Shown here in pieces: positions 3,047 to 56,297 of a stretch of 64,000 nt of DNA. Position 1 is the stretch's first letter. Each line of letters starts with the position of its first letter. The notes under the pieces were generated by a model. The model was given only the letters and a program-made list of their open reading frames with translations, was not told where the DNA came from and did not search any database. The translations under genes and the position numbers were made by a program. The DNA lies in the NCBI RefSeq assembly GCF_006345805.1, contig NC_043013.1, positions 38,254,001-38,318,000 on the forward strand. Reading direction: 5' to 3'. The DNA is from Octopus sinensis (lineage: Eukaryota).

Positions 3047-3788
3047 ATATATATGTATATATATATATATATATATACATATATGTAAGTTTTATGAATG
3101 TATGCATATATGTATTACGTATGTGTACATACATGCATATATAACACGCAGGAGGAAGGGGAGGATGTTCTTCCTGTGGAGTTGAGCCCCTGTGGTGCAA
3201 AGGAGCTATGAGAGATGATTTATTCCTCTTTACAGCGAACGAGGGAGTCAGGATGGCTCCTGTGAAAATATAGTCTGAACACAGACAGGTGTTGTAGTCA
3301 ATTACTGGTAGAGCAGAAATGGTGCAAGACCGGATTGCCCGGCGGTCAGCCAAACGGCGTACCGTTTGGCCGCTTTACAGAGAAGGACAGAAAAGCAGGA
3401 GATGCAGTAAATAACGTTGCTATAAATGCAGGTTAAGGAGTCGGTGATATGATAGGGATGACAATAGGTGCCTGTGAGGATGGTGGCGTTATAGAAGTAG
3501 GGGCAAGTGTAGGAGCGTGAACGGGAGCAGAGGAACAAGCCAGGTTGGGAGGCAGGGTTAGGAAACAAACTGAGGACCAGGAGATCACGCAGGTTGTGGG
3601 CTCGTTTGAAGGAAGGAGTGGGTAGGTTGAGAAGATGTGTATGGTAGAGGGGTCGGACTGGAGTCGCCAGAAAGTTCGGAAAATGATACGTTGAAGGGGC
3701 AGAGTGGAGGGATGGTAAGTGAGCAGAAATGAGAAACGGTCAACGGCAAGGCGGGTGCGGAGAGAGAGAACGGAAAGTGCTCTGGCGA

Positions 3789-3996
3789 TATAGCTCTATA
3801 TTTAAGAGATGAGTAGTTATGTACATTCTTTACAGTATTTACATTTGACGGATATTTGTCCTCATCTTGTTTGTTGTTAACAAAACGTTTCGGCTGATAT
3901 ACCCTCCAGCCTTCATCAGGTGTCTTGGGGGCGGATTTCGAACGTTGTGTTAACAGCAAACAAGATGAGGACAAATATCCGTCAAATGTAAATGAT
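3789..3996 (-). mobile_element. Headless copy of the hammerhead-bearing SINE with an internal inversion, nested in the PLE
   Basis: 12-bp TSD GTGCTCTGGCGA (3777-3788 and 3997-4008). Homologous to 48747-48860. Has 53-bp inverted arms at 3837-3889 and 3941-3993 with 2 mismatches. Confidence 0.85.
3879..3924 (-). ncRNA. Minimal type I hammerhead ribozyme motif (Penelope-type)
   Basis: GACAC-CUGAUGA-A-GGCUG..CAGCC-GAAA-CG-UU-UUGUU. The core is intact; the first stem I pair is mismatched in this copy. Confidence 0.7.
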
Positions 3997-4902
3997 GTGC
4001 TCTGGCGAGGGCTGTGTAGATAGTAGTAACGTGATATCCACGAAGGATCAAGTGGCGAGCCATGAGTTGAGACAGAGTCTCAAATTCATGGTTGTCATTG
4101 CAGAGCCCGCGCTGACGGATGAACTGAGAGTAGGGGATGGAGAGCTTGGTGTGGGTAGGGTAGGAGGAGGAGAAGTTGAGATATGAGTGCGAGTCAGTGT
4201 GTTCGTAGTGGATGGAGGTAGTGAGAGTGGAGTGGTATATGTTGACTGGAATGTCGAGAAATGCGATGGAAGTGTTGGAAACAGTGCAGGATGGAAGGAT
4301 GGAAGGATCGGACAAAAGAGTGGAAGGAGTCTATTTGTACGCGGGAGAGCGAGGTCGCACCGATACAGTCATCAATATAACAACCGTATGGTTCGGGAGT
4401 GGGACCGGTGAATCGGGAGAATATTTGGGCTTCAACGTAACCAACGAACAGGTTCGCATAATTTGGGGTCTATTCTCGTTTCCGTGGTCACTCCAGGGTA
4501 CTGTTGTTAACAAGAAATAAACCCGCGAACGAGAAGAACTTGAGTGAGAGAACAAGTTCAGCCAGACGAAGAAGTGTGAAGGTGTCCGGTTGTGGGGGTT
4601 GGGTCGAAGATCTAGGAAGTATTAGAGTGCAAAAAGTCCTTCGTTGTGTGGAATCCCCGTATATATAGACTCTTGATATCAAGAGTGAATAGATGTTTAG
4701 AGCGACCAGGATAGGGAGGAAGGGAGGAAGGGAAGAAGGGCTTAGAATCTCAGCTAAATGAATCAGTCTAAAAGATTTACAAATTTCTATACAGATTAAT
4801 CTCTGTTTCTCTCTCAGTATATGTCGGCTCAACTATGTGTCTATTAATGAATATATGTTTGCTCTCAACACTTTACTCTGTTTTTCTCTAAACGTATTTA
4901 CT

Positions 4903-48746: not shown

Positions 48747-49017
48747 TTTACATTATTTACATTCGACGGATAGTTGTCCTCGTCTTGTTTGTTTTTAACA
48801 CAACGTTTCGGCTGATATACCCTCCAGCCTTCTTCAGGTGTCTTGGGGAAATTTCGAACCTGGGTTCTCATTCCTAAGGTATTTTTCGATGTTATTATTA
48901 TTATTGCTATTATTATTGTTATTGTTGTTGTTGTTGTTGTTCAGGTCACTGCTTGGAATCGAACTCGGAATCTTGGGGTTCGTAGCCTGCGCTCTTAACC
49001 ACTACGCTATATGCCCG
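48747..49017 (-). mobile_element. tRNA-Arg-headed SINE-like element carrying a hammerhead ribozyme
   Basis: Head GGGCATATAGCGTAGTGGTTAAGAGCGCAGGCTACGAACCCCAAGATTCCGAGTTCGATTCC (A and B boxes, CT-ACG-AA loop), then an (AAC/AAT)n spacer, the HHR, and a tail shared with 3789-3996. Confidence 0.8.
48797..48842 (-). ncRNA. Minimal type I hammerhead ribozyme (Penelope-type)
   Basis: GACAC-CUGAAGA-A-GGCUG(GAGGGUAUAU)CAGCC-GAAA-CG-UU|GUGUU. Predicted cut is between 48802 and 48801. Confidence 0.78.
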
Positions 49018-50321
49018 AGGGCGTGTCTTACTTCGTGTATATAGCTTCTAATAACAACCATTCAAGAGAGTAGTATTTAGTCATTCACAGACTTCATGCT
49101 GTTGGTATTCAACTGACAAATTCCTGGTTCACAGCATTTGCTTTTCTAACCTACACTTAACATTGTAAGTACTTTCATGGTCATTGCTCTGATGAATTAC
49201 TGATTTAGGAATCTCTGTCAGGAAATTTATGTGTATCACTTGCTTCACTTCCCACGAAGCTCTAGCAAGAAGCTGCATCTTAATCCTTCAATCCTTTTAT
49301 TCCTGCAGCTTATTTCCTCAAACTGCTGTTCTCTGGAACTCACTAGCATAGTCATGATTTTCTGTGATCTGTTACCTTCAGTCTTTCGAGTGTGTAAGTT
49401 CCTGCTTCTCTTTCTTTCTTGTTCCTTACGCCACAATAGCTATGAGCCTCGTTTGGGACAAAATCTATTTTAAAAAATAAGCATAAAAGAAGGCAGGGTG
49501 TAGTTTGAGGTAGATGCGGCTGCCATATCGATGCAGGTTAAGCAATCATATTTTGTGGCTTCTTTCTTGGCCCGAAACGGTACACAACGTAAACATTTTT
49601 TGAATGGCTACATTGCTGACATGAGTTTCCTCTGAAACACCTCTGCTAAGGATAGGATCTGGCTTGCTAGGAGAATCGTGAGACCACTGCTGAGACGCTT
49701 CCACAAAATAAAAAGGCCTTTAAGAAAACCTATTATAGCTGCGACTCCATCTAAGAATATCTGAAGAAGGAATACTATTCCGAAATATCGTATCAGACTA
49801 TGGATGACTAATTTACAACAGGTATAGAGCACATTGTCATTATTATAGTGCATTGTTGTACCATTCAAAACTGTTTATTCTTTGATTCATTTGATTTTTA
49901 GCGACCTTGTTGTTGATGCTTTCAATACAAATTGGCCAGAGAATTACCTTATCCTCCCTCAATGGGATATAAATCTTTCGACTCTACCATTCTCGGTTTT
50001 CTGCTAAATATCACCAACTGTTAGAGTAAAACTGGCGGCTTTCCAAGAGCTTAACTTCCACTCTGCTGCACTGGTTTTATATATGCGTAGTATTTCACGG
50101 AAGTACGCATACGTAGCACACTCTCACATATGTGTTTGCTGGTGCATGCGCACACTAAAGATACATACATGTGGGAGTTGGGGGTGACGTGCGTGTGCTT
50201 TGTGTTAATGATCTTGTGTGGGAATACAGACGTGCTGGTTTCCGTGTCAAAGTATTATAGAGCTGTGTGTACTAATATACATACATTACACACATATATA
50301 CATACGTATGCATATATACAT

Positions 50322-55529: not shown

Positions 55530-55838
55530 TGTTGTTGCTTGTTCCTTCTCGAGCCATGCCTGGCTCATAAGGGCCGGTTTCCCGGTTTCATTGGCGTGTA
55601 TGTGCCCCACCTGGATGGGACGCCGGTCCGTAGCAGGTGAGCTGCTAATGCAGGCAGAAAGAGTAAGAGAAATATGTGGAGAAAGAGTCAGCAGAAGTTC
55701 GCCATTACCTTCTGTCGGAGCCGAGTGGAGCTTAGGTGTTTCGCTTATAAACACAAACATCGCTCCGGTCTGAGATTCGAACCCGCGATCTTTCGATCGC
55801 GAATCCGATGCTCTAACCACGAAGCTATGTACCTCCAC
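55530..55838 (-). mobile_element. B-related SINE head with tail-3
   Basis: B-like head and body, then CCTGCTACGGACCGGCGTCCCATCCAGG and an AAC-rich end. Confidence 0.7.
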
Positions 55839-55969
55839 TCTCCGACTAATACATAATATAAATTCTTCATCTCAGAAATATAGAATTGTTTTATCCAAGC
55901 GACACGGAACCGACATAAGACAACAATGGAGCTCTATAAGCCTTTAAAATTCTCTCTAACACTGCTTAC

Positions 55970-56133
55970 AGGCATAGCGTGGTGGATAAAGGCAATGAAA
56001 TTCAGTGCAGTCACCTAGCGTGTTTTGAGTTCAATTCCCAGACAAAACACTAAGGTGAATCACGAGGCACAGGAAAAAGACTGGTGCTTACGTAACCGAA
56101 ACGTAGTGAAAGCAAAAAGGGAGATGAGGACAC
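55970..56133 (+). mobile_element. Old decayed copy of the tRNA-head plus hammerhead element
   Basis: TAGCGTGGTGG A-box and GAGTTCAATTCC B-box, then GGCAC..AAGACTGG..CCGAAACGTAGTG..AGATGAGGACA, aligning to 48775-48842. Confidence 0.55.
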
Positions 56134-56297
56134 CACTCCACTCTGGCCAGTAGTAAAGTAGTCATTTGTGTTTCCTACAGATTTAACATTCCAGTACTTT
56201 TTTACGGTGTGGTGGCTTGTGTGGATCAATTCTCCTGTGAGCTTTGCTAATGGAACATATTTTCTTGGCAGGGCCTCCAATGCTAGTTAGTTGAAAG

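What the first reader, a model, noticed from the sequence alone, without database searches (positions are those of the whole stretch)
48747..49017. tRNA-Arg (Pol III)-headed SINE carrying a Penelope-type hammerhead ribozyme
Seen: the minus strand has a tRNA-like head (A-box TAGCGTAGTGG, B-box GAGTTCGATTCC, ACG anticodon loop, AAGATTCC as in tRNA-Arg(ACG)). An (AAC/AAT)n spacer follows, then an intact minimal HHR (CUGAAGA-A..GAAACGUU, 5-bp stems I and II) and an AT-rich tail. The same module recurs headless at 3789-3996 with a TSD and decayed with a head at 55970-56133, so it looks like a family. Established: CUGANGA-A..GAAACG minimal HHRs with a palindromic stem III typify Penelope-like termini and are thought to cleave as dimers; schistosome SM-alpha repeats are a precedent for Pol III plus HHR. 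Inference: this is a ribozyme-bearing SINE possibly mobilised by Penelope machinery rather than by a LINE.
Basis: partly seen in the sequence, partly recalled or inferred. Interest (0 to 1): 0.8.

Follow-up and report, generated by a model that had tools for sequence, protein, structure and literature searches.

The report
Penelope retrotransposon with tRNA-like promoter end
This short repeat, which looks like a tRNA-derived SINE carrying a ribozyme, is the detached terminal repeat of a protein-coding Penelope-type retrotransposon. Its tRNA-like head likely lets RNA polymerase III, an enzyme meant for short non-coding RNAs, transcribe the whole element.

Summary
The sequence observation holds: tRNA-like head, (AAC/AAT)n spacer and minimal type I hammerhead (HHR), in a family of roughly 30,000 insertions (extrapolated). 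It is not an independent SINE with a borrowed tail. The same 270-310 nt is the pseudo-LTR (pLTR) of an autonomous Penelope/Poseidon element. The head follows the RT-endonuclease ORF's 3' UTR, and HHR plus tail run on in frame into that ORF. Copies show the Penelope signatures: 35 of 70 are head-to-head pairs, and 30 of those 35 carry the ~40-nt tail on one arm only. About 80% of intact heads start abruptly at the tRNA-like 5' end. The ORF has 0 runs of four or more T against 4.6 expected (P=0.006). Both fit Pol III transcription of the whole element, which is inferred, not shown; available RNA reads were uninformative. The ACG anticodon is private to this copy. 55970 is a separate, older mini-element. 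Nine literature searches found no Penelope element with a tRNA-derived pLTR; Repbase/Dfam/SINEBase could not be checked.

The parts
48942..49016 (-). tRNA-like head of the pLTR (75 nt): A box 49009-48999, anticodon-like loop around 48983-48981, B box 48966-48955; predicted Pol III type-2 internal promoter
   Evidence: z=7-9 vs genomic tRNAs; boxes >=92% conserved outside CpG in 100 arms; directly follows the ORF 3' UTR in autonomous copies
49017..49023 (-). decayed remnant of the palindromic leader (family form TGCCC-AC-GGGCA across the UTR/head junction), where most copies start or fold back
   Evidence: AC precedes 20 of 39 intact head starts, AT 6, GT 5; L141 and L150 3' ends
48892..48941 (-). 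(AAC/AAT)n spacer of variable length
48843..48891 (-). pLTR body with the ATG (48871-48869) that opens the frame running through the HHR into the RT-EN ORF (start codon inferred)
   Evidence: L142 has a 391-aa open frame from this point; a distant homologue P0002 keeps the HHR-coded stretch near its N-terminus
48797..48842 (-). minimal type I hammerhead: stem I 48842-48838/48801-48797, core 48837-48831, extra A, stem II 48829-48825/48814-48810, palindromic AACGUU stem III; predicted cut 48802/48801, predicted to need a dimer
   Evidence: N7 is A 48% / T 48% across copies, other non-CpG core positions >=96%; matches the min-HHR description in PMC4209133
48747..48796 (-). ORF N-terminal segment up to the 'pre-tail' 3' end (one of two 3' end sites); this copy lacks the ~40-nt tail and has no TSD
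3777..4008 (.). second family A insertion: head-to-head pair (tail-bearing arm 3792-3942 minus; short pre-tail arm 3941-3998 plus) between 12-bp TSDs 3777-3788 and 3997-4008
55836..56150 (+). family B mini-element in partial tandem: tail + ORF N-terminal relic fused to 3' UTR relic (55836-55969), then a different tRNA-like head (from 55970) and a decayed HHR

Best explanation
The element is a solo pseudo-LTR of an autonomous Penelope/Poseidon-type retrotransposon whose pLTR begins with a tRNA-like head, which likely acts as an RNA polymerase III promoter for the whole element. Shown: the unit is head - AAT spacer - HHR - tail - ORF (RT + GIY-YIG-type endonuclease, about 800 codons) - short 3' UTR - next head. 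Most copies start at the head and end at one of two sites about 40 nt apart, and half are head-to-head pairs with the tail on one arm. Inferred: Pol III starts a few nt upstream of the head and reads through an ORF free of T4 stop signals. The RT-EN protein binds the ORF start and primes internally at the tail sites, as shown in vitro for the Anolis element. Priming at the first tail copies only the ~300 nt up to the RNA 5' end and gives the SINE-like solo pLTR; priming at a downstream tail gives ORF-bearing copies. Inferred, less firm: inverted pairs arise from two cDNAs, one per start site and per nicked strand, joined at their 3' ends, helped by the palindrome at the head start. The palindromic HHR stem III may pair the two RNAs. 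The window copy lacks tail and ORF start and is probably inert.
For: Head directly after the ORF 3' end: L150 full-length copy, plus L123, L141, L151; 39 of 40 scored places cover ~300 nt of the ORF-end-to-head junction; 383 exact junction matches genome-wide, 0 for the reversed control. HHR+tail in frame with the ORF in many loci, e.g. L143 = head+HHR+tail+910 nt of ORF. RT: PF00078, E 6e-8. 94 homologues at E<=1e-20, nearly all 690-1000 aa with RT + PF28514 + PF26215, two also GIY-YIG PF01541; 36% identity over 352 aa to an Anolis protein. Insertion signatures: 35 of 70 inverted, 30 of 35 tail-on-one-arm, exact TSD >=10 bp in 16 of 35 inverted vs 5 of 35 single-arm; these are the PLE hallmarks in PMC8557442, PMC3846280 and PMC11167929. 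5' pile-up: 29 of 30 full-head loci have no ORF upstream; 383 junction vs 2186 head matches with equal sensitivity (8/27, 17/56) put it at ~18% read-on. T>=4 runs: 0 in the 755-codon column-majority ORF vs 4.55 expected, P=0.006; the same null slightly under-predicts 70 other long frames (266 observed, 234.5 expected); copies 0.19/kb vs 3.5/kb in a control PLE family. Two-cDNA step: in pre-tail arms the loop reads AC 6 times and GT 3 times, whereas fold-back from a tail-first cDNA predicts GT always.
Against: No direct Pol III evidence. Three unstranded RNA-seq runs of coded organism B show no pile of read starts or ends at the head or at the HHR site, and depth falls from ~600 to ~10 just past the tail, so 5'-linked full-length RNA is rare there. 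The T4 test is null-dependent: synonymous shuffle P=0.057. G>=4 runs are also absent (0 vs 1.6), and the control family's majority ORF is also below expectation (2 vs 4.3, P=0.16). The share of heads that read on into the ORF differs between samples (1/30 vs ~18%), and in the reads the UTR is the commonest sequence before the head. How an uncapped Pol III RNA would be translated is unexplained. No copy with an intact full ORF was found; copies are ~10% diverged. The loop test has n=9. No shuffled control was run for the TSDs.
Confidence: 0.68

Rival explanations
1. Same pLTR architecture, but the head is a passenger (an old SINE or tRNA pseudogene fixed in the pLTR). The element is transcribed by Pol II like Drosophila Penelope, and copies stop at the head start because of a Pol II initiator there or because the palindrome stalls or folds back the RT.
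For: Drosophila Penelope uses a TATA-less internal promoter with a DPE (PMC2377424 passages). 5' palindromes occur in pLTRs without tRNA heads (PMC3846280 passages). T4 absence is only P=0.057 under synonymous shuffling. A capped RNA would solve translation.
Against: A and B boxes sit at tRNA spacing in both family A and the older family B. The 5' pile-up lies ~7-14 nt upstream of the A box, where Pol III starts (established knowledge). The whole 2461-nt majority unit is free of T4.
Confidence: 0.25
2. Most short copies come in trans from non-autonomous masters (head-HHR-tail plus a short piece of ORF) transcribed by Pol III and mobilised by the Penelope protein, i.e. a working SINE of Penelope. 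The autonomous copies supply only protein.
For: Internally deleted tandem copies exist (L120, L128, L139, L147, L159; L128 and L147 share one junction). Family B is such a mini-element. Only 1 of 16 loci in unbiased blocks has ORF sequence.
Against: Internal priming on the full-length RNA would give the same solo pLTR in cis (PMC11167929). Short and ORF-bearing copies are about equally diverged from the references. The head is not specific to non-autonomous copies.
Confidence: 0.3
3. An ordinary tRNA SINE with a LINE-derived tail that carries an HHR-like motif by chance or by capture.
For: Size, head and copy number are SINE-like.
Against: No poly-A or simple-repeat 3' end; the 3' part is the Penelope ORF start in frame; inverted one-tail pairs.
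Confidence: 0.02

Closest known systems
Penelope/Poseidon-clade PLEs, e.g. PAc (Poseidon of Anolis carolinensis; PMC11167929, parts 1-2 of 4 read)
   Same: Single RT + C-terminal GIY-YIG-type ORF; HHR in the pLTR overlapping the ORF start; two 3' end sites bounding a 30-40 nt tail; partial tandems and inverted 5'-truncated copies; 36% identity to an Anolis protein that is probably PAc-related (identity with PAc not checked).
   Different: The pLTR here opens with a tRNA-like A/B-box head and the ORF lacks T4 runs. The one dissected PLE promoter I read about (D. virilis Penelope, PMC2377424 passages) is a LINE-like TATA-less internal promoter. Solo pLTRs dominate the copies.
TRIMp3: Cassandra, Helenus (tRNA in LTR), Ajax (PMC10886601, abstract and passages)
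   Same: A small-RNA-derived Pol III promoter inside a terminal repeat.
   Different: Those are non-autonomous LTR elements with PBS/PPT and 4-5 bp TSDs. Here the carrier is an autonomous PLE with an HHR and longer TSDs.
Sm-alpha / Sj-alpha SINE-like elements of schistosomes (PMC2770079 and PMC8490949 passages; Ferbeyre 1998 not held)
   Same: tRNA-related repeat plus type I HHR at high copy number.
   Different: No autonomous partner carrying the same head is named in the passages read. Here the HHR is of the minimal PLE type, is protein-coding, and the head is part of the autonomous pLTR.
Non-LTR retrozymes (PMC7229834 passages; bioRxiv 10.64898/2026.07.22.740005, part 1 of 5)
   Same: Short HHR-bearing non-autonomous derivatives of PLE pLTRs; family B's partial tandems resemble them.
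   Different: Retrozymes are defined as head-to-tail tandem units, and no tRNA head appears in the passages read. Family A is mostly solo or head-to-head.
Octopus tRNA-derived SINEs OK/OR1/OR2 (Ohshima and Okada 1994; seen only as a reference, with OR2 called a CORE SINE in PMC4758252; tRNA-Arg origin recalled)
   Same: tRNA-like head, similar size, probably a related host (host group is my inference from recalled repeat features, no call names it).
   Different: Sequences could not be compared. This family may already be catalogued under such a name without the HHR/PLE link.

Membership tests
EN+ Penelope-like element (Penelope/Poseidon clade) | single ORF with RT and C-terminal GIY-YIG endonuclease | tested here: met
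   PF00078; 755-codon open majority frame with YVDD and a C-terminal VYSIPC..GET..R motif (motif name recalled); homologues carry PF26215 and two carry PF01541. The EN was not scored directly against Pfam.
EN+ Penelope-like element (Penelope/Poseidon clade) | pLTR formed by partial tandem, containing a minimal type I HHR | tested here: met
   L150, L148, L120, L159; HHR
EN+ Penelope-like element (Penelope/Poseidon clade) | inverted 5'-truncated copy at the 5' end; 30-40 nt tail on one end | tested here: met
   35 of 70 inverted, 30 of 35 one-tailed
EN+ Penelope-like element (Penelope/Poseidon clade) | clade placement by RT phylogeny; no Zn-finger linker (unlike Neptune/Nematis) | tested here: inconclusive
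   no extra Cys cluster between RT and EN in the majority frame; similarity to an Anolis protein; no tree built
SINE2 (tRNA SINE) | tRNA-derived head with A and B boxes | tested here: met
   isotype unresolved; ARAGORN and Rfam do not call it a tRNA
SINE2 (tRNA SINE) | independent non-autonomous element whose head is absent from the autonomous partner | tested here: not met
   head lies in the autonomous pLTR
SINE2 (tRNA SINE) | LINE-derived 3' end and poly-A or simple-repeat tail | tested here: not met
   3' part is the PLE ORF start; ends fall at two fixed sites
SINE2 (tRNA SINE) | transcribed by RNA polymerase III | not testable with these tools
   indirect only (5' pile-up, T4 depletion); reads unstranded and uninformative
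minimal type I hammerhead ribozyme | conserved core, stems I and II, extra nucleotide after A9, palindromic stem III | tested here: met
   description in PMC4209133
minimal type I hammerhead ribozyme | self-cleavage (as dimer or protein-assisted) | not testable with these tools
   no read ends at the site; PAc likewise showed none in vivo
non-LTR retrozyme | head-to-tail tandem units each with an HHR; circular RNA | tested here: not met
   family A short copies are solo or inverted; partial tandems only in a minority and in family B; circular RNA not tested
TRIMp3 (Helenus/Ajax/Cassandra) | true LTRs with PBS and PPT, 4-5 bp TSD, no ORF | tested here: not met
   PLE ORF between the repeats, TSDs of 8-17 bp where found; PBS/PPT not searched

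The most novel reading that the evidence does not exclude
An autonomous, protein-coding retrotransposon that runs its whole 2.6-kb RT-endonuclease unit from a captured tRNA promoter. Its ORF has been purged of Pol III terminators, its uncapped RNA is translated through a coding hammerhead, and an RNA/protein dimer primes two cDNAs at once. The SINE-like family is its by-product, which shows a route by which a Penelope element gives birth to SINEs.
Probability: 0.4. Interest if true: 0.85.

Novelty: new variant of a known kind. Interest (0 to 1): 0.66.

Why it matters
If Pol III drives this element, it is a protein-coding retrotransposon using a promoter class thought to serve only short non-coding RNAs and non-autonomous elements. 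That raises a direct question about cap-independent translation and a possible job for the PLE hammerhead. It also shows that a large 'tRNA SINE' family can be a set of solo Penelope pLTRs, which matters for repeat annotation in genomes where most SINEs are unclassified (PMC13282606 lists 893 of 900 recently active SINE families as unclassified). The tens of thousands of short copies, with a strand-marking 2-nt loop and a one-sided tail, are a natural data set for the open question of how PLE inverted structures form.

Tried and rejected
ARAGORN found no tRNA in the window. Rfam gave no tRNA or hammerhead row among the 150 of 190 window hits shown or for the element alone. Pfam gave no hit for four pieces of the other PLE in the window or for two N-terminal ORF pieces. 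A family search with PF26215 could not be run. One genome search was mis-aimed and hit an unrelated repeat; it was not used. The RT protein search returned only family-A-like copies (150 scored, 69-100% identity), so no autonomous partner of family B was found. RNA reads show equal strands and no start/end pile at the head or HHR, so they are no test of Pol III or cleavage. Unconstrained cofolding of two HHRs gave a swapped-stem dimer, not the stem III dimer, so it is not evidence. Rejected: Arg(ACG) identity; 55970 as a decayed family A copy; a LINE tail; simple fold-back from a tail-first cDNA as the only source of inverted pairs. Literature: nine searches showed no title or abstract on a PLE with a tRNA/Pol III pLTR. 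Three of them returned no papers. Ferbeyre 1998 and Lunse 2017 are not held. No supplements were read; those of PMC8557442 and PMC13282606 (repeat libraries) could hold this family. Earlier scan notes: nothing. The unbiased sample stopped at 1.264 Mb, so copy numbers are rough.

Full report
Observation. On the minus strand, 49016-48942 is a 75-nt tRNA-like head with A and B boxes. It is followed by an AAC/AAT spacer, a 49-nt body, a minimal type I hammerhead (48842-48797; predicted cut 48802/48801) and about 50 nt more, ending at 48747. ARAGORN and Rfam do not call either part, but the head aligns to the genome's own tRNA genes at z = 7-9 over shuffles. The isotype is open: the best of 33 distinct genes of 9 isotypes was Arg(TCT), narrowly ahead of Thr/Cys. 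The ACG triplet is private to this copy, since 97% of 100 heads have T at its third position.

Family. G000 (2.72 Gb) gave 3240 candidates; all 40 scored are near full length at 87-100% identity. In 1.264 Mb not chosen by similarity (twelve 100-kb blocks plus the window) there are 16 loci, 14 of them 100 nt or longer. The 14 loci outside the window give about 12 per Mb, or roughly 30,000 genome-wide (my Poisson range about 17,000-53,000). In 30 loci picked by the HHR alone, 18 carry a head. In the HHR core, N7 is split A 48% / T 48%, while other non-CpG core positions are at least 96% fixed. The split is tolerated both by the ribozyme and by the overlapping codon (Glu/Asp).

What it is. A 35-aa frame from the family B copy in the window led to loci where HHR and tail run on, in frame, into a long ORF. 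L141, L148 and L150 are near-complete decayed elements. In L150 the 2.3-kb ORF and a short 3' UTR are followed directly by head, body, HHR and tail. This junction is general: 39 of 40 scored places cover about 300 nt or more of it, and there are 383 exact matches genome-wide with 0 for the reversed control. L143 has head, HHR, tail and 910 nt of ORF in one run. [quoted passage not shown] Its 94 homologues at E<=1e-20 are mostly 690-1000-aa RT proteins, two annotated with PF01541; the best is 49% identical and an Anolis protein is 36% identical. The best homologue keeps the peptide coded by the hammerhead near its N-terminus, so the ORF probably starts at the ATG in the body and reads through the ribozyme. 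The finding is therefore the pLTR of an autonomous Penelope/Poseidon-type element, inserted alone.

Insertion signatures. Of 70 insertions examined (58, after dropping two duplicates, and 12 from the blocks and window), 35 are head-to-head pairs. 30 of those have the ~40-nt tail on exactly one arm; 23 single arms end before the tail and 12 at its end. Exact TSDs of at least 10 bp flank 16 of 35 pairs and 5 of 35 single arms; no shuffled control was run. Inverted 5'-truncated copies, a one-sided tail and junction palindromes are described PLE traits (PMC8557442 and PMC3846280, passages). The tail marks two internal RT start sites of a protein that nicks and extends both strands (PMC11167929, parts 1-2).

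Evidence on the promoter. Copies begin abruptly at the head. 29 of 30 full-head loci have no ORF upstream. Genome-wide, 383 UTR-head junction matches against 2186 head matches, with equal pattern sensitivity (8 of 27 and 17 of 56), imply that about 18% of heads read on and about 82% stop. The stop falls in a palindrome, TGCCC-AC-GGGCA, spanning UTR and head, about 7-14 nt before the A box, where Pol III would start (established knowledge). The 755-codon majority ORF has no run of four T: 4.55 expected under a third-position null, P = 0.006. That null slightly under-predicts 70 other long frames (266 observed vs 234.5 expected). Copies have 0.19 such runs per kb against 3.5 in a control PLE family. 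Against: the synonymous-shuffle P is 0.057, G4 runs are absent too, and the control's majority ORF is also a little low, 2 vs 4.3. Three unstranded RNA-seq runs of coded organism B cover the pLTR deeply on both strands. 88-89% of laid reads run on into unlike sequence, there is no pile of starts or ends at the head or the HHR site, and depth drops about 60-fold just past the tail. These reads look like passive transcription of dispersed copies and neither show nor exclude Pol III use. They do show the UTR-head junction in that organism. Drosophila Penelope uses a LINE-like internal promoter (PMC2377424 passages), so a Pol II start at the same place remains a real rival.

Mechanism (inferred). 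Pol III starts just upstream of the head and reads through. The protein primes at a tail site inside the RNA. Use of the first tail yields a ~270 or ~310 nt cDNA that ends at the RNA 5' end, which is the solo pLTR; use of a later tail yields ORF-bearing copies. The 2-nt loop marks strand. Fold-back from a tail-first cDNA would leave GT before every pre-tail arm, but 6 of 9 informative pre-tail arms read AC. This favours two cDNAs, one per start site, joined head to head; n is small. The palindromic stem III could pair the two RNAs; this is untested, and cofolding did not favour it. The window copy lacks tail, ORF start and TSD and is probably inert.

Other copies in the window. 3777-4008 is a one-tailed pair with a 12-bp TSD inside another PLE. 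55836-56150 belongs to family B (43 matches, 176 candidates, 70-81% identity apart from the self-match). It has a different tRNA-like head (z 4.5-6), the same HHR core and stem II, and an ORF start fused to a 3' UTR relic, in partial tandems (5 of 20 loci by eye). It is an internally deleted mini-element of an older relative, so the tRNA-headed pLTR predates the A/B split (inference).

Comparison and novelty. Pol III heads are known in non-autonomous terminal repeats (TRIMp3, PMC10886601 abstract), and tRNA-related repeats with HHRs are known in schistosomes (PMC2770079 and PMC8490949 passages). Retrozymes derive from pLTRs (bioRxiv 10.64898/2026.07.22.740005, part 1; PMC7229834 passages). Minimal HHRs scattered as solo or opposite-strand pairs were noted in PMC4209133 (parts 1-2). 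Nine searches showed no autonomous PLE with a tRNA-derived pLTR, but repeat databases and the 1994 octopus SINE paper could not be checked. Verdict: a new variant of a known kind. The pLTR identity is about 0.95 likely, Pol III drive about 0.6, and the two-cDNA step about 0.55. Interest 0.66.

Noticed in passing
window 3302-4620 (-): Decayed ORF of another Penelope-like family with a Cys-rich linker (Neptune-type, name recalled). It has 2330 candidates in G000, a C-rich sense strand and its own HHR-like 3' end without a B box; the family A pair at 3777-4008 is inserted in it. Used as control.
   Followed up: partly
window 7599 (-), 7278 (-), 13748 (-), 29359 (-), 49761 (+): Further CUGANGA...GAAA motifs. 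The 7599 type recurs in blocks C5, C6 and C14, and the 49761 type in C6, without an upstream B box: probably pLTRs of other PLE families.
   Followed up: partly
L147 (G000:C27:7599700-7605800): Nested palindromic cluster of about ten pLTR arms with a 121-nt ORF piece; its deletion junction is shared with L128, suggesting a mini-element subfamily.
   Followed up: no
L150, L162, L163 (C9724, C9459, C8464) and L164 (C1): The same full-length copy lies on three small contigs at 100% and on C1 at 99% over the query: segmental duplication or assembly redundancy.
   Followed up: no
family A, after the HHR: The spacer before the tail varies in 9-nt units (Asn-Asn-Val), which keeps the reading frame. 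Some family B copies lack about 10 nt here and put another ATG in frame.
   Followed up: partly
L092, L095 upstream units: In these family B tandems the tail segment is missing from the upstream unit, roughly between the two end sites.
   Followed up: no
window 55762-55827: Another tRNA-like repeat fragment on the minus strand just upstream of the family B copy.
   Followed up: no
L150:2150-2500 in runs X21-X23: The ORF 3' end is covered at a depth close to that of the head, higher than its genomic share here would predict; unexplained (species difference or a few expressed loci).
   Followed up: no
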